Positions 26,138 to 45,511 of a stretch of DNA of 52,330 nt are shown one piece after another. The translations under genes and the position numbers were made by a program. Where the stretch lies: the IMG/VR virus record IMGVR_UViG_3300030385_001830, positions 1 to 52,330 of that record. One strand, 5' to 3'. Position 1 is the stretch's first letter; each line of letters opens with the position of its first letter. The stretch comes from a virus (lineage: Duplodnaviria > Caudoviricetes). The notes under the pieces were generated by a model, which did not search any database, was not told the origin of the DNA, and was given only the letters and a program-made list of their open reading frames with translations.

Positions 26138-27208
26138 ATGGCTATTAGACCAAAAGGTTTTAACGGAAAACCTCCTGTAAAACCAGGAGATATTCAGAAG
26201 TTAGAAGTAACAAAAGAATTTTATAGGTGGATAGTAGAACGCCATGAAATCTATCGTCGCCGACTAGACGGTTATCCTTATCCATGGACAGAAGACCCTG
26301 TCTTAAATCGCTACAAATTCACTAACCCCTTTAGAGAAAATGATGCAGACACTATATGGATGCGTGATTATTTTAGGCCTGACATTTTAAACAAAAAAAT
26401 CGGTTTTGCTGATATCAACCATAATATAGTTAATGCCGCATTGTTTAGAATGATAGGCACCCCCGAATTTGCACAAGAGTTTTTAGAGCAGCATAGGTGG
26501 ATAACTAAAATTAATTACAACCCCGAGTTAATTAAAAAAATAATAAAAGACCGGCTGGCTGCAAAGAAAAAATGCTTCACGGGTGCATATATTGTTACTA
26601 ACCAAGGGATTAAAGCACCCAAGGCTGATGTGGTAATAGATGAATTTATCACACCACTGGCTAAGACACTTCAATACCCTTACACACTTCCCATAGAAGG
26701 CGCAATTTTCAATAGACCTGTTTTAGATTGCATGGAAGATTTACATTCCCTATTGAAAAAGTTTAAAGGGTTTGGGGGTGGAGGTTTTATGGCCTACGAG
26801 GTAGTTACTGATGTAGCTAACATGCCTTTTTATAATCCACTAACAATGAAAATGCGCCATCCTGCCAAGTATATTAGTGACAGGTACCGTTGGGCTAATG
26901 CAGGTCCCGGAGCCATACGAGGATTAAACCGTATATATGATTTTCCTTATAAAGCACGTATGCCGCAAAAAGACGCTAACCTTAGAATGCGAGAAATCAT
27001 AGGGCATAAGTACCTAGCGCATCAATTAGCCGAAGAAAAGGGTTATGACCCAATAGAATTTAAAGACATAGACATGCGCTGCATAGAACACAGCTTATGT
27101 GAATTTGATAAGTATTGCCGAGTTTGTTACAAACAAGGCAAACCCCGTTCTGTTTGTAAATATGACCAAGGGGAAATTTATCCTATTAAGGAAGGCCCAG
27201 TTAAATGA
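26138..27208 (+). CDS. 5-hmdU DNA kinase helical-domain (aGPT-Pplase1-like) DNA base-modification protein
   Basis: ERHEIYRRR...PWTEDPVLNRYKFTNPFRE, GFGGGGFMAYEVVTD, GPGAIRGL and IEHSLCEFDKY motifs. Confidence 0.8.
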   Translation: MAIRPKGFNGKPPVKPGDIQKLEVTKEFYRWIVERHEIYRRRLDGYPYPWTEDPVLNRYKFTNPFRENDADTIWMRDYFRPDILNKKIGFADINHNIVNAALFRMIGTPEFAQEFLEQHRWITKINYNPELIKKIIKDRLAAKKKCFTGAYIVTNQGIKAPKADVVIDEFITPLAKTLQYPYTLPIEGAIFNRPVLDCMEDLHSLLKKFKGFGGGGFMAYEVVTDVANMPFYNPLTMKMRHPAKYISDRYRWANAGPGAIRGLNRIYDFPYKARMPQKDANLRMREIIGHKYLAHQLAEEKGYDPIEFKDIDMRCIEHSLCEFDKYCRVCYKQGKPRSVCKYDQGEIYPIKEGPVK

Positions 27209-28548
27209 AAATATTAATGACGCTTTACCAAATACAAGATTATGGTGGGATAATTAACCACCTTGAAAATCTTACACATGGGTTCAGGCGTAATGGTCAT
27301 CAAGTGGATGTGGTTATGTTATGCCCTAAGCATAAGATAACTAACGTAAAATCTAAACGGGACGATTGGCAAGTTAATCCCGAGGGCACAGGTTATAAAT
27401 TTAACCAAGCTAGAGGATGGACAGGGTTGCCTAAAGTACCCTACCTAAATGCAGCCGCTCGAGAAGCCTTCAGAGACCGCTGCGAGGAATATGATGGGGT
27501 GTTGTGGCATATACCTGTGCCTACCTTAAACAAGGAAAATAAGGGGGTCTCAGAGTGGGTAGAGTTATACAGCTCACGAGCTAAGAACTTTGCTATTCTT
27601 CATGATGGTAACTTCCCTAAGCTGTACCCTCACTTAAACCATGTCAAACATTATTTTAAAGGGTTGATATGTGTACATGAGGCAGCTTACAATGCAGCAG
27701 CCGCTATTGACCTAAAACGTATACTAATTGTTAATCCCTTTGACCTACACACATGGCGTAGAAACCCTGAAGGCTTTGCGCCGTTGAATTTTAATGAAAG
27801 AAATGGGTTTACTTCAGTACAAATATTCAAAGCATGGAAAAGGGTAGACGAATTAATACGCGCTATTCCTTTAATGAACAGCACTCAACACAAACGTATT
27901 GGGGGAGCGGGAATTGAGTACCGCTATATGACAAGCAAGGATAAGTGCAAACCTAAATATTATAACGAACAGGGAGAAAAAATTTGGGATGCAGCTTTAA
28001 AAAGAGGGATGCTGTATTTGGGAACTATCCCAAACTCTAGTGTGTATGCCCATTTAATGCAATCTAAATTACAGATAGACCCAAGCTGGTCTCACAAGTA
28101 TGCAGCCTACGGAGCTCACTTTAACCGCACAACCGTAGAAGCCATGATATGTGGTGCAGTCCCTATGGCAACTGACCTAGGAATGATAGACAGTAAAATA
28201 TTTAAACCAGATATTAACTATGTACAAATTCCCCACGATACCACTCCCAATTATTACGCTGCCCTACTTGACCATTGTTTAAGTGAAGATTATAAGGTGC
28301 AGTGGGAAACAATACGCCAGAACAACTTAGAGTTAATACCAAGGTTTGATTTACAAACAGTGGCGGGTGCTTATGGATATGTTATTCAATGGTCAAATTT
28401 TGCTGATCGAACCACAAACCAATATAGTGCTGAAAAAGGTGAGTTAAGTGACGAAGTAAGGGAAGCATCTAAGAAAAACCTAAAGTTCTTTGGGATAACC
28501 ACAACCGATAATTATAAGGAAAGTTTGGATTTATTTAGGACACACTAA
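27205..28548 (+). CDS. GT-B glycosyltransferase, probably DNA-modifying
   Basis: N-terminal YGGIINHLENL..G..RNGHQV, WKRVDELIRA and C-terminal FNRTTVEAMICGAVP (GT-B donor-binding motif). Confidence 0.75.
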   Translation: MKILMTLYQIQDYGGIINHLENLTHGFRRNGHQVDVVMLCPKHKITNVKSKRDDWQVNPEGTGYKFNQARGWTGLPKVPYLNAAAREAFRDRCEEYDGVLWHIPVPTLNKENKGVSEWVELYSSRAKNFAILHDGNFPKLYPHLNHVKHYFKGLICVHEAAYNAAAAIDLKRILIVNPFDLHTWRRNPEGFAPLNFNERNGFTSVQIFKAWKRVDELIRAIPLMNSTQHKRIGGAGIEYRYMTSKDKCKPKYYNEQGEKIWDAALKRGMLYLGTIPNSSVYAHLMQSKLQIDPSWSHKYAAYGAHFNRTTVEAMICGAVPMATDLGMIDSKIFKPDINYVQIPHDTTPNYYAALLDHCLSEDYKVQWETIRQNNLELIPRFDLQTVAGAYGYVIQWSNFADRTTNQYSAEKGELSDEVREASKKNLKFFGITTTDNYKESLDLFRTH

Positions 28549-29534
28549 TGTATACGTTTACCGCCAGAGGGCCAAGTGAGGGATTATTCCTTGTTAAACA
28601 AGCACTAGAAGAGGTAGGAAAACCCATTGTTACACGCAATGGCGCAGCTTTAGAATTTGTTTCCCCCGTTTTAATTCACTATACTCACCCTAAAGAAAGA
28701 GTACTTTTTTACAAAGAAAGAGACGCTAATCCTTTTTTCCATTTAATGGAAGCCTTATGGATGTTAGCAGGACGCAGGGATGTAAAGTTTGTAAACAACT
28801 TTAATGGACGCATTAAAGACTATTCTGATGACGGTGAAATTTTTCACGGGGCTTATGGATACAGATGGCGCAACTGGTTTAAAAAAGACCAACTAGACGT
28901 AGCAGTAGAGAGATTATCAAAGTGGCCTCATGACAGAAGGACAGTAGTGTCCATGTGGGATGCTAATACTGACTTAATAAAAACCAATGAACACAAAGAC
29001 TTACCCTGTAATACCGCCATTTTTTTCAAACAAAGAAACAACAAGCTAGACATAACAGTTACTAACCGTAGCAATGACCTTATATGGGGTACCTTTGGAG
29101 CCAACATGGTTCACATGTCTATTTTACAAGAATATATGGCAGCAAGATTAGGGTGTGAAGTAGGGAGCTATTACCATTTTACCAATAACCTTCATGCTTA
29201 TGAAGATGTGCTGGCAAAAATTAAGCACATAAAACCTGAATATGACCCTTACCTTACGCTAGGAAAAGATGGTCTTTCTTATAAGCCCCCTTCTTTTGTA
29301 GAGGCACCTGATTATTTTGATAAAGAGTTACAACAATGGTTTAAGGATAGAGACCGAACCCTTTTTGCCAATGAGTACTTATTTAGAACATGCAGCATGG
29401 TAAGGTCAGCGTGGAAATGTTTTAAAGAAGATAATTTAAAAGGGGCGTTTAGTTTTGCAGAGGAAATTAGTGACCGAGCATGGCAAAAAGCCTGTATTGA
29501 ATGGCTAACAAGGAGGGAGATAAAAAAGAGATGA
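28548..29534 (+). CDS. Thymidylate synthase homologue, likely dUMP hydroxymethylase
   Basis: GAYGYRWR, DLPCN catalytic Cys, RSNDLIWG..GAN (Asn at the specificity position points to dUMP) and NNLHAYE. Confidence 0.8.
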   Translation: MYTFTARGPSEGLFLVKQALEEVGKPIVTRNGAALEFVSPVLIHYTHPKERVLFYKERDANPFFHLMEALWMLAGRRDVKFVNNFNGRIKDYSDDGEIFHGAYGYRWRNWFKKDQLDVAVERLSKWPHDRRTVVSMWDANTDLIKTNEHKDLPCNTAIFFKQRNNKLDITVTNRSNDLIWGTFGANMVHMSILQEYMAARLGCEVGSYYHFTNNLHAYEDVLAKIKHIKPEYDPYLTLGKDGLSYKPPSFVEAPDYFDKELQQWFKDRDRTLFANEYLFRTCSMVRSAWKCFKEDNLKGAFSFAEEISDRAWQKACIEWLTRREIKKR

Positions 29535-29869
29535 GCGAAATAAAGGTAAAAAAACTAAATCTAAGTAACCAACTTCAGAAGGCAGAATCTATTGCTTTAG
29601 CTGATATCCTTGCTTTAAATGCAGCGGAAGCCAACTATGGGGATAGTTGGAAAAAGCGTGGAGGTGTGGGTGCCTTTATGATGTTAGCCCGCAAGTGGGA
29701 CAGAATAGAAAACCAAGTTTCACCACGTCGCCGCAATAAAAATTATCCCACCTATGATATATTTCAAGCTCTCACTACCGATGATAGAGATGAGGGTATC
29801 TTAGATGATGTTAGGGATTTAAGAAGATACTTACTGCTAGTAGAATCTGAGGTATATGTGGGTGAATAA
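29531..29869 (+). CDS. Nucleotide-modification-associated (Nmad1 / MazG-like) protein
   Basis: YGDSWKKRGGVGAFMMLARKWDRIEN...DLRRYLLL; likely ATG at 29531. Confidence 0.65.
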   Translation: MSEIKVKKLNLSNQLQKAESIALADILALNAAEANYGDSWKKRGGVGAFMMLARKWDRIENQVSPRRRNKNYPTYDIFQALTTDDRDEGILDDVRDLRRYLLLVESEVYVGE

Positions 29870-30023
29870 AAAAGAAATGGATAAAGAAGTATTAGCTGTT
29901 TGTAAATGTGGAAAAGAATACAAAGCAATTTCTTTTCGCACTATAAAGAATAAATGGCCTCAGTGTGAGTGCAAACAACCCATGATAATTAAACCCAATT
30001 CCCCCTTACCACATAAAATTTAA
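29862..30023 (+). CDS. Small Zn-ribbon protein, 53 aa (not in ORF track)
   Basis: CKCG...CECKQPM; fills the gap between two coupled genes. Confidence 0.5.
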   Translation: MNKKEMDKEVLAVCKCGKEYKAISFRTIKNKWPQCECKQPMIIKPNSPLPHKI

Positions 30024-40726: not shown

Positions 40727-41263
40727 ATGCCCTTACCCAAACAAACTCATAAACCCCATCTAGAAGTTGTGGCAAATCCCCGCACTGAAAAAAAGATAAC
40801 TCCCAAGCAAGAGGAATTTGTAAGGATTTATTGTTGCGAGGATGTAAGCCAGACAGAAGCTGCGGTACGGGCTGGATACTCTAAGAAGTCTGCACACGCC
40901 ATAGCATCCCAATTATTAAACGGCACTAGATATCCCCACGTAGTAGCTAGAGTTTATGAGGTAAAAAATGAGCTGGCACACAAGTATGAAGTCACATTTG
41001 AAAACCATGTAAAAAAACTAGCAGACATAAGGGATCTAGCATTACGTGAAGGATCATACGCTGCTGCTGTAGCGGCTGAAAAGAACAGAGGACAGGTAGC
41101 AGGTTTATACATTGATCGTAAAGAAATCTTGCACGGAAAGATAGATACTATGACAAGGCCAGAAGTATTGAGGGAAATACAAAAGCTGCATGAGGAATAC
41201 CCTGTGTTGAGTGCAGTGACGGAAAGCAACCTAGTGATAGAAGGGGAAGTTGATAAAACCTGA
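40727..41263 (+). CDS. terS: Terminase small subunit
   Basis: ITPKQEEFV...QTEAAVRAGYS..SA...ASQLL HTH; AAVAAEKNRGQVAGLY. Confidence 0.85.
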   Translation: MPLPKQTHKPHLEVVANPRTEKKITPKQEEFVRIYCCEDVSQTEAAVRAGYSKKSAHAIASQLLNGTRYPHVVARVYEVKNELAHKYEVTFENHVKKLADIRDLALREGSYAAAVAAEKNRGQVAGLYIDRKEILHGKIDTMTRPEVLREIQKLHEEYPVLSAVTESNLVIEGEVDKT

Positions 41264-41695: not shown

Positions 41696-41832
41696 TCGTG
41701 TCTACTCGCCTCTAGTCGTGTCCCTTCGTATCTTGTCAACTCCCCGTGGATCATGGACGATGGTCATTGATCGATTACGATCGCCATGGATCGCCATGGA
41801 TCGCCATGGATCTTGGCCGATCGCCCACGATC
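41696..41832 (+). repeat. Phased TC array (5-bp period) running into a GATC array (10-bp period)
   Basis: TC every 5 bp from 41696 to 41741 (ten copies); GATC at 41749 and every 10 bp from 41769 to 41829 (GATG at 41759). Confidence 0.95.
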
Positions 41833-41905: not shown

Positions 41906-42496
41906 TTAGGCTTTAGAAGCCATAACGGTTATAGGTTTAACGACCAATTGCACCAAGGACTTGCCGTAGAAAAACTTGCTACGATCCTTTGTGGTATTGG
42001 TCCCGTTTAGCAACATGAGAAGCGTATTGCCATCCCCAATTGTTGCTGTGGACTCTGCTACTTTACCACCAGTAGCTTTGATGGCTACATTTATGTGGTT
42101 GAGTCTACGGCTGGCGGTTTTGCCACCTGCGACTGGTTCCCACTTGAGCTTATCAAATGCTTTGCTCTTGTTGCTGGGTATACCGTCTTTAGGTAGCTGG
42201 ACTCCAAATAGCCAGCAGCGTAACTGATTAGCACGAGTTGTAGTGCTAGCTGCGAACATACCCGCAATCTTAGCGGTATTGGCCCAATTTTCAGCAGTAA
42301 TACCTAGTGAGTCAAACAGTGGTGTAGTTTCTACCACCACATTGGCTTGAAGGTCTGCTGCATTGTCTTTAACAAATTTTGCTACACAAGAACCGCTGAC
42401 CAATTTGTTGCCATTGGTTGCGAAATTCAGGGTAGCCCCGTCGGTAAGGTTTAGAGCCTTTACCAGAGGCTTGGCGGTTACTTTCTGTTTAACCAT
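41906..42496 (-). CDS. Unknown protein, paralogue A
   Basis: 196 aa; promoter TTGTGG-17-TAGTAT upstream; shares GMFA, TGGKV, GNTLxMLLxGTNT and VQLVVKP with 43127-43738. Confidence 0.75.
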   Translation of the reverse strand: MVKQKVTAKPLVKALNLTDGATLNFATNGNKLVSGSCVAKFVKDNAADLQANVVVETTPLFDSLGITAENWANTAKIAGMFAASTTTRANQLRCWLFGVQLPKDGIPSNKSKAFDKLKWEPVAGGKTASRRLNHINVAIKATGGKVAESTATIGDGNTLLMLLNGTNTTKDRSKFFYGKSLVQLVVKPITVMASKA

Positions 42497-42688: not shown

Positions 42689-42732
42689 GATCGTGGCCGA
42701 TCTTGGCCGATCGCCATGGATCATGGGCGATC
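42689..42732 (+). repeat. Second GATC array (10-bp period, 5 copies)
   Basis: GATC at 42689, 42699, 42709, 42719 and 42729; units GATCTTGGCC, GATCGCCATG and GATCATGG are shared with the first array. Confidence 0.95.
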
Positions 42733-42847: not shown

Positions 42848-42946
42848 ATGAGACAGCTCCTCTATTATACTCTGTTATCACTCGCGTTTATTACGCTCGC
42901 TATTAGCTCCGCCATCATCTGGTGGTTGGTAGCACCATGGGTATAG
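42848..42946 (+). CDS. 32-aa single-transmembrane peptide (not in ORF track)
   Basis: Promoter palindrome at 42802-42818, AGGGAG RBS; MRQLLYYTLLSLAFITLAISSAIIWWLVAPWV. Confidence 0.5.
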   Translation: MRQLLYYTLLSLAFITLAISSAIIWWLVAPWV

Positions 42947-43126
42947 CAATAGCTTTTTATATAGTGCTAATACTACTGTATATATAGCCAGTACAATATA
43001 CTGTATAAAATAACAGTATAAATATACCATTGTTTAACACAAAAGTGTTGTGTTTAGCATTTACCTGTGCCTATAATGCTTTATTGGCTTGCAATAAAGC
43101 GGGTCAATAAACACAGGTATAAAACC

Positions 43127-43738
43127 ATGCAAAAAGTAAATACACAAAAAGCAATTACAGCCGGTATAGCTAACCTTAACAGCAATGCCATTTATACATT
43201 ACCTGCTAGTGGTTTAGCTAATGGTGCAAACATTGCAACCTATGCAACTAATAACTGCAATAATAAACTTAGCCAAATAGCCGTGGTAATAACACCATTT
43301 GGTAAGGGTTTAATAAAAGGGTTACCCGTACCCGCTAATGGTTTAAGTGGTAACGCTGCTATTAATGCTTACATGCTGGCGTTTAAAAACTTAAACAATG
43401 GCATGTTTGCGGTTGGCAGCACGGTACGTTGTTACCAGTTTTTGTGTTACATGTTAGGTGTTGTGCCTAACAGTAGCAAAAACAATAAAAGTAAAAAGTG
43501 GGCTAATTTACAGGCTGCTAATGCTTTGGGTACATTAGGTGGTAACAATGCTAGTAGTAGCTTAGGGCATATTGGCACAGTGGTTGGGCACACTGGCGGT
43601 AAAGTTACCAGTGGCAACATTGCCAATGGCAACACACTTGCTATGTTGCTAAGTGGCACCAACACTATTAAAAGCCCGCAACATGCTTTTTTTAAAAAGC
43701 CCATTGTGCAACTGGTAGTTAAGCCTAACCTTAAGTAA
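43127..43738 (+). CDS. Unknown protein, paralogue B (no Asp or Glu)
   Basis: Perfect TATAAT at 43072-43077, CAGGT before ATG 43127, 203 aa, homologous to 41906-42496. Confidence 0.75.
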   Translation: MQKVNTQKAITAGIANLNSNAIYTLPASGLANGANIATYATNNCNNKLSQIAVVITPFGKGLIKGLPVPANGLSGNAAINAYMLAFKNLNNGMFAVGSTVRCYQFLCYMLGVVPNSSKNNKSKKWANLQAANALGTLGGNNASSSLGHIGTVVGHTGGKVTSGNIANGNTLAMLLSGTNTIKSPQHAFFKKPIVQLVVKPNLK

Positions 43739-43760
43739 TACACTTGGCCCCATTGGGCAT

Positions 43761-43793
43761 AAGCCGGGTAGCTAATAACTACCCGGCTTGTTT
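43761..43793 (+). terminator. Probable terminator hairpin
   Basis: 11-bp AAGCCGGGTAG/CTACCCGGCTT stem with a weak U tract. Confidence 0.55.
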
Positions 43794-43942
43794 GTGCTTG
43801 TTACTTTTTGCCTAACGCCTACCATATGGTTAGGTACCTAGCACCCGTTATATGGTGGTACCCTAACACCTACCCTATGGCCCCCCCCCTGAGACATATA
43901 AGGGTACCCGTCAGGGTGGCCTTATACTGTTTACCATGATTC

Positions 43943-45511
43943 GTGGGAGAGCAAAAAATTATTAACAGGGGTACCCCCCTAGACACTGAAAGTGGCCCTA
44001 GGTTCATTGCTGTGTGGAAAATTTCGATATATGATTTTTATATGGATGATAAAGAAATTGAGAAAGTCCCAGAGGAGCGATTGAGGAGTTATGCCCAGTT
44101 GCTTGAGCGAGCGCAGCAGTTGGATCTGGCGGCGGCGGCGCGATTGGGATTTATGGAGTTTGTGTTGTTGGCGTGGCCTGAGTTTATAAATGGACGCCAC
44201 CATAAGATAATGGCTGATAAGTTTAATAAGTTGGCGGCTGGAAAGATTAAGCGCTTGATAGTTAATATGCCGCCGCGCCATACGAAGAGTGAGTTTGCCA
44301 GTTATTTGTTACCGGCATGGATGATGGGTAATAGACCCCATTTGAAGATAATGCAGACGACGCACACGGCAGAGTTGGCTTTTAGATTTGGCCGAAAGGT
44401 GCGTAATTTGATGAATACGGACCATTATAAGCAGATATTTCCTGGAGTGAGTTTACGCGCAGACAGCCAAGCGGCGGGACGTTGGGAGACAAATGCGGGT
44501 GGTGAGTACTTTGCGGCAGGAGTAGGTGGTGCGGTTACGGGCCGTGGTGCGGATTTGTTAATAATAGACGACCCCCACAGTGAGCAGGATGCCCTAAGCC
44601 CAAGTGCCTTGGAAAATGCTTACGAATGGTATACAAGTGGCCCGCGCCAACGGCTCCAGCCAGGAGGCAGTATAGTAATAGTAATGACCCGCTGGGCAGA
44701 TAATGACCTCACCGGTAAGCTGGTAAAGCAACAGGCAAGAGACATCCTAGCCGACAAATGGGACATTGTAGAGTTCCCAGCTTTAATGCCCGACGATAAA
44801 CCGCTCTGGCCCGAATTCTGGAAGAAGGAAGATTTAATAGGCGTAAAGGGTAGTTTAAGTGTAATCAAGTGGGAGGCCCAGTGGCAACAGAACCCCACCA
44901 GTGAGCTGAGCGCGATACTAAAACGCGATTGGTGGAAAAAGTGGAAACACAAGGAAATCCCATCCTGTGTTTACTTAATGCAAAGCTACGACACCGCATT
45001 TAGCAAGAAGGAATCCAGCGACTACAGCGCAATAACCACATGGGGCGTTTTTTATCCAGAGGAAGATGGCCCCCCAAATATCATGCTATGCGATGCACGA
45101 CGAGGACGTTGGGATTTTCCAGAGTTACGCCGCATCGCCTTTGAAGAGTACAAATACTGGGACCCAGAGATAGTGCTAATCGAAGCAAAAGCCAGCGGTA
45201 CCCCCCTAATACAAGAGCTACGCACCATGGGCATACCTGTAACCGAATACAGCCCAAGCCGAGGAAACGACAAGATGTCACGGGTTAATTCAATTGCCCC
45301 GTTATTTGAAACTGGGTTAGTATGGGCACCGGATACCCGCTGGGCTGAAGAAGTAATAGAAGAATGTGGTGCTTTTCCATCGGGAGAGTTCGATGATTAT
45401 GTGGACACTGTTACCCAAGCACTGCGCCGCTTTAGAGAGGGTGGTTTTATAACCCACCCCGAAGATTACAAAGACGACTTCTCGGTTCCTAAGCAGAGAG
45501 TATATTACTAA
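43943..45511 (+). CDS. terL: Terminase large subunit
   Basis: MPPRHTKS Walker A, IIDDPH Walker B, VMTRW, QSYDTA and DDYVD nuclease motifs; true start may be ATG 44042. Confidence 0.95.
   Translation: MGEQKIINRGTPLDTESGPRFIAVWKISIYDFYMDDKEIEKVPEERLRSYAQLLERAQQLDLAAAARLGFMEFVLLAWPEFINGRHHKIMADKFNKLAAGKIKRLIVNMPPRHTKSEFASYLLPAWMMGNRPHLKIMQTTHTAELAFRFGRKVRNLMNTDHYKQIFPGVSLRADSQAAGRWETNAGGEYFAAGVGGAVTGRGADLLIIDDPHSEQDALSPSALENAYEWYTSGPRQRLQPGGSIVIVMTRWADNDLTGKLVKQQARDILADKWDIVEFPALMPDDKPLWPEFWKKEDLIGVKGSLSVIKWEAQWQQNPTSELSAILKRDWWKKWKHKEIPSCVYLMQSYDTAFSKKESSDYSAITTWGVFYPEEDGPPNIMLCDARRGRWDFPELRRIAFEEYKYWDPEIVLIEAKASGTPLIQELRTMGIPVTEYSPSRGNDKMSRVNSIAPLFETGLVWAPDTRWAEEVIEECGAFPSGEFDDYVDTVTQALRRFREGGFITHPEDYKDDFSVPKQRVYY

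What the first reader, a model, noticed from the sequence alone, without database searches (positions are those of the whole stretch)
42920..43890. ~1-kb island completely purged of the GA/TC dinucleotide, containing a whole transcription unit
Seen: 971 bp contain zero GA and one TC (43104, in the 5' UTR). A rough base-composition estimate gives about 55-60 of each. The island covers the promoter (TATAAT 43072), the 203-aa CDS, the terminator and downstream non-coding DNA, so the constraint acts on DNA and not only on protein. The protein has no Asp or Glu, Ser is only AGY, Phe only TTT, and there is no ATC, CTC, GGA or TGA. TT, CT, AG and CG remain present. The + strand GA-free stretch (42854-43891) is bounded on both sides by TGAGACA (42849, 43890). 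Inference: the unit must lack a TC/GA-context target. Candidates are the phage's own bulky T hypermodification, which could block host RNAP on the first-expressed gene, or host systems reading GA/TC motifs (GATC/GANTC restriction-modification, Dnd GAAC/GTTC, DarT TNTC).
Basis: partly seen in the sequence, partly recalled or inferred. Interest (0 to 1): 0.95.

Follow-up and report, generated by a model that had tools for sequence, protein, structure and literature searches.

The report
Phage gene cassette purged of GA/TC
A group of abundant uncultured marine phages keeps one complete small gene, with its control regions, free of the two-letter DNA step GA/TC, at the cost of every acidic amino acid in its protein, probably so that this stretch escapes the chemical mark the phage puts on its own thymines.

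Summary
Window 42920-43890 has 0 GA and 1 TC, against 100 GA+TC per kb genome-wide. It is neither chance nor an artefact. The same stretch lies in contigs of 19 runs from 16 studies. 51 of 80 related loci have a 512-1181 bp GA/TC-free island upstream of terL.

Each island holds a real gene. The AlphaFold model has pLDDT 91, and the protein is basic and has no Asp or Glu. The constraint acts on nucleotides: 0 G|A codon junctions were seen where about 486 were expected.

New here:
- A normal-composition paralogue sits upstream in 29 of 31 loci with enough flank.
- Of 27 core genes, only the thymidine-hypermodification cluster and these two paralogues are missing from all four island-less outgroup genomes.
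- The two strands relax independently, and sense-strand GA (template-strand TC) is the more persistent.

Best reading (0.42): the cassette avoids a TC-context thymine hypermodification so that it stays readable.

Against this, 0 of 7 cultured phages with the same enzyme family have such an island. No modification data exist.

Earlier notes of this scan report the same kind of cassette in at least 8 other windows from other phage genomes. I did not check them.

The parts
42919..43890 (.). GA/TC-free island (0 GA, 1 TC at 43104)
43127..43738 (+). CDS of P0001: 203 aa, no Asp/Glu, basic. Member of a family of 133 representative clusters.
   Evidence: (AF2 pLDDT 91, pTM 0.87)
43072..43077 (+). TATAAT, a candidate -10 box. 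Not called by the simple promoter scan.
   Evidence: read
43759..43791 (+). Terminator-like hairpin followed by a T-rich tail
43881..43889 (+). Run of nine C at the island's right edge. A C-run followed at once by GA marks the right edge in relatives too.
42848..42946 (+). 32-aa hydrophobic ORF. It is GA-free after codon 2 but holds TC, and its 3' end lies in the island. Similar small hydrophobic ORFs stand upstream of the island gene in relatives.
   Evidence: read
41906..42496 (-). Normal-composition paralogue ('copy A'): 196 aa, 12 Asp+Glu, 71 GA+TC per kb. 34% identical to P0001 (E 6e-26) and 57% to the island protein of L002.
26138..27208 (+). HMUDK_hel-domain protein (PF18723). Its relatives are annotated aGPT-Pplase1 in M6-like phages, Pam3 and Sonora.
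27205..28548 (+). Glycosyltransferase-like protein (weak GT1/GT4 Pfam hits). Replaced by TAGT plus radical SAM in other members of the clade.
28548..29534 (+). Thymidylate-synthase homologue, a candidate dUMP hydroxymethylase
29501..29869 (+). Conserved small ORF of the cluster, with no family hit. Absent from the outgroup.
43943..45511 (+). Terminase large subunit, directly downstream of the island
40727..41263 (+). Terminase small subunit

Best explanation
The island is a self-contained gene cassette. It comprises 5' flank, a ribosome site spelled without GA, a 203-aa basic protein and a terminator. It is kept free of the step 5'-TC-3' on both strands.

It occurs in a clade of uncultured marine podophages related to the HTVC023P-type pelagiphages. 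That clade has acquired a thymidine-hypermodification cluster: a TS-like candidate dUMP hydroxymethylase, an aGPT-Pplase1/HMUDK-helical protein, and a glycosyltransferase with or without a radical SAM enzyme.

Inferred mechanism: the DNA-level step of that pathway acts on 5-hmU followed by C. Most of the genome therefore carries bulky, probably glycosylated, thymine derivatives at TC. The cassette offers no target and stays plain DNA. This lets RNA polymerase initiate on it and read it whatever the modification state of the genome. The template strand matters most.

The cassette thus supplies a modification-independent copy of a small, strongly basic and probably nucleic-acid-binding protein. 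The ordinary paralogue of that protein lies 0.6-2.5 kb upstream.

Shown: the purge, its conservation, its action on nucleotides, the paralogue pair, the co-occurrence with the cluster, and the strand asymmetry.

Inferred: the TC context, the effect on transcription, and when the cassette is needed.
For: 1. The purge is absolute, local and conserved.
- 51 of 80 terL-related loci have a GA/TC-free island of 512-1181 bp upstream of terL.
- Each of 6 long purged records has exactly one island.
- Control: 0 of 80 loci around the Pplase1 gene have a stretch of 400 bp or more; the longest is 87.

2. The constraint acts on nucleotides.

3. Independent natural data agree. Contigs of three other studies cover the island, and the 6 substitutions of one variant create no GA or TC.

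4. Phyletic link. Of 27 in-group core ORFs, only the five ORFs of the hypermodification cluster (26138-30023) and the two paralogues are missing from all four complete outgroup genomes: HTVC027P, HTVC023P, 023Pt_psg01 and DSL-LC04. Those genomes also lack any island, their longest GA/TC-free stretches being 80-87. The same Pplase1 query found the gene in 8 of 10 in-group records.

5. The shared enzymes are the TS-like protein, the HMUDK_hel/Pplase1 protein and a small ORF. The downstream enzymes differ (GT4-like versus TAGT plus rSAM), and both cluster types include purged genomes. The rule therefore follows the shared part of the pathway.

6. Strand asymmetry. Nine terL-proximal copies have regained TC but kept GA at 2 or fewer: for example L033 0 GA/17 TC, L045 1/30, L073 1/10. 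Where GA returns it is nearly always at codon position 1, that is Asp/Glu codons: L011 5 of 5, L007 8 of 9. This fits a template-strand TC being the costlier one.

7. The constraint has a cost. Relaxed relatives restore GGAG ribosome sites and acidic residues.

8. Literature.
- Flodman 2019 (PMC6449724, section 10 read) infers a TG/TC dinucleotide preference for 5-hmdU modification.
- PMC9599517 (passages) reports TS plus aGPT-Pplase1 in clades V, VIII and IX of HTVC023P-type phages.
- Base J (glucosyl-hmU) promotes RNA polymerase II termination in kinetoplastids (abstracts only).
Against: - No modification data exist for any member, so the TC context is an inference.
- 0 of 7 cultured phages with a Pplase1 homologue have any dinucleotide-free island: M6, PhiJL001, Pam3, RHph_I72, Sonora, PaMx11, and SH-Ab 15599 (first 140 of 143 kb). 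The pathway as such does not demand one.
- Relaxed relatives still carry the cluster: 3 of 5 records, the other two being fragments. No gene was found that separates purged from relaxed genomes.
- All other phage genes hold GA/TC at normal density and must be transcribed too.
- TCGA (O/E 0.43) and GATC (0.73) are still under-represented genome-wide. That is not what full protection of TC sites would predict.
- I found only the helical-domain protein. No P-loop 5-hmdU kinase turned up among the ORFs scanned, and not all ORFs were scanned.
- L011, L022 and L012 regained more GA than TC.
Confidence: 0.42

Rival explanations
1. Escape from an enzyme of the host, or another phage enzyme, that reads GA/TC on DNA. 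Candidates are a low-specificity nuclease, a TC-specific cytosine deaminase or a DarT-like thymine ADP-ribosyltransferase. The rest of the genome would be shielded by modified T. The cassette, needed before or independently of that shield, would be protected by having no target.
For: - The purge covers both strands and the flanks.
- The cassette protein evolves fast: 13-24% identity to P0001 for most of the alignment, while terL of the fetched loci stays 63-92% identical to the window's. This is as expected of an arms-race gene.
- Relaxation in some lineages without loss of the phage's cluster fits an agent that differs between hosts.
Against: - No candidate enzyme was identified.
- It is unclear why the cassette could not simply be protected by the same modification.
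- The specific co-occurrence with the hypermodification cluster still has to be explained through that cluster.
Confidence: 0.2
2. Constraint at the RNA level. The mRNA avoids GA, and less strictly UC, to resist an endoribonuclease (a toxin, a collateral CRISPR RNase or a phage shut-off RNase). It would be a natural analogue of ACA-less, MazF-resistant messages.
For: - The two dinucleotides behave as separable constraints on the sense strand, with GA the stricter one.
- The purged span roughly matches a transcription unit: a median of 149 nt upstream and 85 nt downstream of the CDS.
Against: - It needs two specificities, whereas one DNA dinucleotide read on both strands explains both.
- The purge runs 32-492 nt past the stop codon and ends at a conserved C-run beyond the terminator hairpin. 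It also covers the 5' flank that should hold the promoter.
- No RNase candidate was found.
- It does not explain the link to the thymine-modification cluster.
Confidence: 0.12
3. A DNA-structural or packaging role. An unmodified zone next to the packaging signal (C-runs and inverted repeat upstream of terL) would be needed for terminase action. Alternatively it forms the end of the genome that enters the cell first, like the T5 first-step-transfer region. The gene would merely be a tolerated passenger.
For: - The island always abuts a conserved non-coding C-run element 150-250 bp upstream of terL, with terS nearby.
- In the window, + strand TC is also scarce in the first 750 nt of terL: 3 TC in 44101-44700, against a mean of 9.9 per 300 nt.
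Against: - The conserved element itself contains GA/TC.
- The island's length tracks the gene.
- The TC dip in terL is modest in the 49-locus meta-profile, and comparable TC-free gaps (365 and 352) occur elsewhere in the window.
- No termini could be mapped. Contig ends of complete records do not fall at the island.
Confidence: 0.1
4. A mutational origin. Recurrent TC-to-TT / GA-to-AA editing of a stretch that is exposed single-stranded would erode every TC on both strands, and the protein would adapt.
For: The island proteins are rich in Asn and Lys and have no Asp or Glu, as GA-to-AA changes would give. AA, TT and TA are abundant in the island.
Against: - The edges are sharp, and the absence stays total over deep divergence.
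- Relaxed lineages regain TC quickly.
- No deaminase was identified.
- In effect this differs little from selection against TC.
Confidence: 0.05

Closest known systems
Thymidine hypermodification from 5-hmdU in phages M6, ViI, phiW-14, SP10 and PaMx11 (Lee 2018 PMC5889632; Lee 2021 PMC8989533; Flodman 2019 PMC6449724)
   Same: The window has a TS homologue beside a HMUDK_hel/aGPT-Pplase1 protein and a transferase next to polA. In those phages only part of the T is modified, with an inferred dinucleotide (TG/TC) preference.
   Different: No modification-free gene cassette is described in the passages and section I read. M6, PaMx11 and five other cultured phages with the enzyme have no dinucleotide-free island. 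The marine clade uses glycosyltransferases, and I found no P-loop kinase.
Restriction-site and short-motif avoidance in phage genomes
   Same: Sequence is selected to lack the target of a sequence-reading enzyme.
   Different: Here the motif is a dinucleotide. The avoidance is total but confined to about 1 kb, the rest of the genome has normal density (100 per kb), and it forces a protein to do without Asp and Glu.
Leading-end early regions (T5 first-step-transfer DNA; the T7 leading end with gene 0.3). Recalled, not from a call.
   Same: A short, self-contained unit that may have to work before the rest of the genome is available or protected.
   Different: The position at a virion DNA end and early expression were not shown here. 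Neither example is recalled to lack a dinucleotide.
ACA-less mRNAs that resist MazF (recalled, not from a call)
   Same: A whole message is written without the target of a short-motif enzyme.
   Different: Here two dinucleotides that are reverse complements of each other are absent, and so are they from the flanks. This points to duplex DNA.
Base J (glucosyl-hydroxymethyluracil) in kinetoplastids (abstracts seen)
   Same: A glycosylated 5-hmU placed at particular thymines that affects RNA polymerase progress.
   Different: It is eukaryotic and is made by a JBP dioxygenase on T in DNA. No purged genes are known there, and the chemical nature of the phage mark here is unknown.

Membership tests
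5-hmdU-derived thymidine hypermodification system | dUMP hydroxymethylase (thymidylate-synthase homologue) | tested here: inconclusive
   PF00303 match, E 1e-22, and phrog_5131, E 2e-104. Homology cannot tell a hydroxymethylase from a plain thymidylate synthase.
5-hmdU-derived thymidine hypermodification system | aGPT-Pplase / HMUDK helical-domain protein | tested here: met
   PF18723, E 1.6e-39, over 2-278 of 281 profile positions. tblastn hits to genes annotated aGPT-Pplase1 in AN14, Pam3 and Sonora.
5-hmdU-derived thymidine hypermodification system | P-loop 5-hmdU DNA kinase | tested here: inconclusive
   None seen among the ORFs scanned with Pfam. Not every ORF of the window was scanned.
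5-hmdU-derived thymidine hypermodification system | Modified thymine present in virion DNA | not testable with these tools
   Only assembled contigs were laid; one raw read of run X22 lay on the stretch.
Genome-wide restriction-motif avoidance | Under-representation of the motif across the genome | tested here: not met
   GA+TC stand at 100 per kb outside the island, and the longest other gap is 96.
First-entering (leading-end) early region, as in T5 FST or T7 | Lies at the virion DNA end that enters first | not testable with these tools
   One search lists no place where many molecules begin or end. The IMG/VR records are classed linear without end repeats.
Toxin-resistant motif-less mRNA | Motif absent from the transcript only | tested here: inconclusive
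   The purge covers a median of 149 nt upstream and 85 nt downstream of the CDS. RNA ends are unknown and no RNA run was listed.
Any known protein family or fold for P0001 | Profile or fold match | tested here: inconclusive
   Pfam and PHROGs gave 0 families. Foldseek against PDB and BFVD gave no match at E <= 0.001. The best VIA-align Z was 3.3.

The most novel reading that the evidence does not exclude
In these phages a TC-specific, glycosylated 5-hmU mark acts as a genome-wide brake on transcription, a bacterial-virus counterpart of base J. The purged cassette would be the one unit readable on fully marked DNA. Its acid-free, basic protein and the normal paralogue would then bind the marked DNA and license its transcription or handling. 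On this reading the phage carries a built-in 'bootstrap' gene written in a reduced alphabet.
Probability: 0.15. Interest if true: 0.95.

Novelty: categorically new. Interest (0 to 1): 0.86.

Why it matters
If the reading is right, the sequence alone reveals the target context (TC) of an uncharacterised DNA hypermodification in one of the ocean's abundant phage groups. It would also show that such marks conflict with gene expression strongly enough to force a gene to be rewritten without two amino acids.

It gives a sequence signature, a gene-sized dinucleotide-free island, for finding context-specific DNA modification in metagenomes without chemistry.

It also supplies dozens of natural, confidently folded proteins built from 18 amino acids, each with a normal paralogue as a built-in comparison. 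That is of interest for protein evolution and design.

Whichever agent is responsible, something in the infected cell reads exactly the step GA/TC, and no published system that I could find accounts for it.

Tried and rejected
- **Chance or assembly artefact:** rejected.
- **Mobile element with a TGAGACA target duplication:** rejected. The right edge in relatives is a C-run and the left copy is a start-codon region.
- **Rfam and tRNA scans of the window:** nothing found.
- **GenBank phages:** no DNA or protein match to the island.
- **Presence or absence of the Pplase1 gene, of cluster type, or of any other gene as the difference between purged and relaxed genomes:** none found. The relaxed records are incomplete.
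- **Palindrome O/E, as a test of whether TC-containing sites are exempt from avoidance:** uninformative, or mildly against.
- **Dinucleotide-free islands in seven cultured phages with the same enzyme family:** none.
- **Islands within 10 kb of the Pplase1 gene:** none in 80 loci.
- **Family members around terL in the outgroup and in five cultured phages:** none.
- **Fold searches:** no convincing match. ESM Atlas returned only unnamed viral clusters.
- **Promoter mapping by regex:** only 10 of 42 loci matched and the offsets were mixed. I therefore cannot say that the purge always passes the -35 box.
- **Depth of Logan contigs over the island against its flanks:** no consistent excess. Mixed populations make this no test.
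- **RNA runs:** no RNA holder listed.
- **Virion ends:** no place where many molecules begin or end.
- **Graded TC depletion into terL (lead from earlier notes):** present in the window but weak in the meta-profile.
- **Searches for a published description of a dinucleotide-free gene cassette or an acid-free phage protein and term searches in PMC9599517:** nothing found. Supplementary files were not seen and might bear on this.
Full report
**Observation.** The 971 bases 42920-43890 hold no GA and one TC, at 43104. The window as a whole has 5237 GA+TC, or 100 per kb. The two longest stretches free of both are adjacent, 787 and 186 bases, and the next longest anywhere in the window is 96. The other nine dinucleotide classes have longest gaps of 52-281. 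The stretch contains a 203-aa ORF (43127-43738) without Asp or Glu, a terminator-like hairpin at 43759-43791 and non-coding DNA on both sides. Only the TATAAT 'promoter' and the TGAGACA 'boundaries' are weaker than stated.

**It is real and it is conserved.** Near-identical sequence lies in assembled contigs of 19 runs from 16 studies of marine samples. Contigs of three other studies cover the island, one of them (43124-43842) without a difference. The six substitutions of another variant create no GA or TC.

A search with the neighbouring terL returned 80 viral contigs with 63-92% TerL identity. Of these, 51 have a GA/TC-free island of 512-1181 bp. In most it lies within a few hundred bases upstream of terL; in a few, other DNA intervenes (up to about 1 kb). 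Most of the rest either lack the upstream flank or carry a partly 'relaxed' island. Six long records each have exactly one island. As a control, 80 loci of the same phages taken around another gene have no stretch over 87 bp.

**The constraint acts on letters, not on the protein alone.** Across 45 distinct purged coding sequences:
- G|A codon junctions number 0 (about 486 expected) and T|C junctions 2 (about 434 expected), out of 7969.
- TCN serine is 1 of 479, ATC 0 of 384, CTC 0 of 665, GTC 2 of 610, TTC 0 of 258, GGA 0 of 864, and AGA+CGA 0 of 95.

In 42 non-redundant loci the purge reaches a median of 149 nt upstream of the coding start and 85 nt (32-492) past the stop. It ends at a conserved C-run that is followed at once by GA. 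Ribosome sites inside islands are spelled with G-runs instead of GGAG.

**The cargo is a real protein with a normal twin.** The island ORFs of all loci are homologous, though very divergent: most are 13-24% identical to P0001 in alignment A1. AlphaFold2 on that alignment gives pLDDT 91 and pTM 0.87. No Pfam, PHROG or fold match was found.

It is 34% identical to P0001 (E 6e-26), has 12 acidic residues and carries 71 GA+TC per kb.

A profile search of the 80 loci gave the following:
- 65 loci hold a family copy.
- Of the terL-proximal copies, 49 have 0 GA and 0 TC, 3 have two or fewer in all, 9 have regained TC only, 1 has regained GA only and 3 have regained both.
- Of 31 loci with more than 3 kb of upstream flank, 29 hold a second, distal copy of normal composition (58-129 GA+TC per kb, median 107).

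In a library of 1.84 billion representatives the family has 133 members at E <= 0.001. Of the 101 that are 120 aa or longer, 38 have no Asp or Glu and 19 have 1% or less. Nearly all members of both classes keep a net charge of about +10 to +20. This points to nucleic-acid binding (inference).

**Link to thymine modification.** The window carries, next to polA, a thymidylate-synthase homologue, a HMUDK_hel-domain protein whose relatives are annotated aGPT-Pplase1, and a glycosyltransferase-like gene. The nearest named relatives by TerL are Pelagibacter phages HTVC027P and HTVC023P, 023Pt_psg01 and DSL-LC04, at 59-63% identity. A published survey of HTVC023P-type phages reports TS plus aGPT-Pplase1 in its clades V, VIII and IX. 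The terms 'dinucleotide', 'acidic' and 'codon' do not occur in its text (PMC9599517, passages only).

The four complete outgroup genomes have no island; their longest GA/TC-free stretches are 80-87. Of 27 in-group core ORFs they lack exactly the five ORFs of the modification cluster and the two paralogues, and share the other 20 at least in part. The co-occurrence is therefore specific, although it rests on one clade.

Two cluster types exist, GT4-like and TAGT plus radical SAM. Both contain purged genomes, so the rule goes with the shared TS, Pplase1 and small-ORF part.

Flodman et al. 2019 inferred from restriction patterns that 5-hmdU modification in M6, ViI and phiW-14 prefers TG/TC (PMC6449724, section 10 read). 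Lee et al. 2018 state that the exact motifs are not known (passage).

**The two strands are separable.** Aligning relaxed L033 with purged L034 (972 of 1093 aligned bases identical) shows 17 new TC and no GA in the gene. The same pattern holds for L037 (2 GA/15 TC), L045 (1/30), L056 (1/8), L072 (1/8) and L073 (1/10). L011 shows the reverse (5/0), and L007, L012 and L022 have both.

TC returns at all codon positions. GA returns almost only as the first two letters of Asp/Glu codons. Relaxed genes also regain GGAG ribosome sites. Sense-strand GA, which is TC on the template strand, is therefore the more persistent ban. Lifting either ban is followed by changes that look beneficial, so the purge is costly and must be held by selection.

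**Best reading and its limits.** One DNA dinucleotide read on both strands explains both absences. T is the base this clade modifies, and a dinucleotide context has precedent. The template-strand bias suggests that reading by RNA polymerase is what must be kept free.

I therefore favour a modification-exempt cassette that provides a copy of the basic protein that can be expressed whatever the modification state of the genome (confidence 0.42).

Against it:
- There are no chemical data.
- Seven cultured phages with the same enzyme family have no dinucleotide-free island of any class.
- Relaxed relatives keep the cluster.
- Every other gene must be transcribed despite holding GA/TC.
- TCGA and GATC are still avoided genome-wide.

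The rivals are given with odds in their own section: escape from another GA/TC-reading DNA enzyme, an RNase-proof message, an unmodified packaging or leading-end zone, and recurrent TC editing. None has a candidate agent in the data.

**Novelty.** Four literature searches and the papers read found no description of a gene-sized dinucleotide-free cassette or of an acid-free phage protein family.

Earlier notes of this same scan report GA/TC-free cassettes with other cargo, such as a PnuC-like protein and a regulator, in at least 8 other windows from other phage genomes that carry thymine-modification genes. I did not verify those notes. If they hold, the phenomenon is wider than this clade.

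Noticed in passing
window 41749-41829 and 42689-42729: Arrays of 8 and 5 GATC in strict 10-bp phase flank the normal paralogue. Similar arrays lie near the island in L001, L002, L003, L025, L026 and L030 only. They could be dense two-strand TC sites on one face of the helix, or protein binding sites.
   Followed up: partly
window 43001-43016 and 42976-42991: Inside the island, upstream of the gene, there are SOS-box-like palindromes: CTGT-N8-ACAG, and a second with CCAG. Related palindromes occur in L002, L003 and L013. These are a possible operator and a possible hint to the host.
   Followed up: no
window 43881-43975; loci: Between island and terL lies a conserved non-coding element: a C-run, an inverted repeat, GA(A/T)TC and a second C-run. 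It is a candidate packaging signal or terL control region, and the island ends exactly at its first C-run.
   Followed up: partly
window 42848-42946; L034, L038, L043, L054: A small hydrophobic ORF (32 aa in the window) precedes the island gene in many relatives and partly lies within the island.
   Followed up: no
window about 41686, 42607 and 42834: A repeated GAGACC(C)AAAA..TGAGA motif stands at three short-ORF starts around the paralogue pair.
   Followed up: no
window 44101-44700: + strand TC is scarce in the first part of terL: 3 in 600 nt, against a mean of 9.9 per 300 nt. The 49-locus meta-profile shows only a modest dip, and similar TC-free gaps occur elsewhere in the window.
   Followed up: partly
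L090 9519-13288 (record G001) versus window 26138-29534: The clade has two versions of the modification cluster: GT4-like transferase, or TAGT plus a radical SAM/SPASM enzyme. The TS-like and HMUDK_hel genes are shared.
   Followed up: partly
L045 and L011: Relaxed island genes have canonical GGAG/AGGAG ribosome sites again, whereas purged genes use GGGG runs.
   Followed up: partly
model mdbee2715e81f (P0001): A confident model (pLDDT 91) with no convincing match in PDB or BFVD. The best hits are weak winged-helix-like similarities at Z 2.0-3.3. It may be a new fold.
   Followed up: partly
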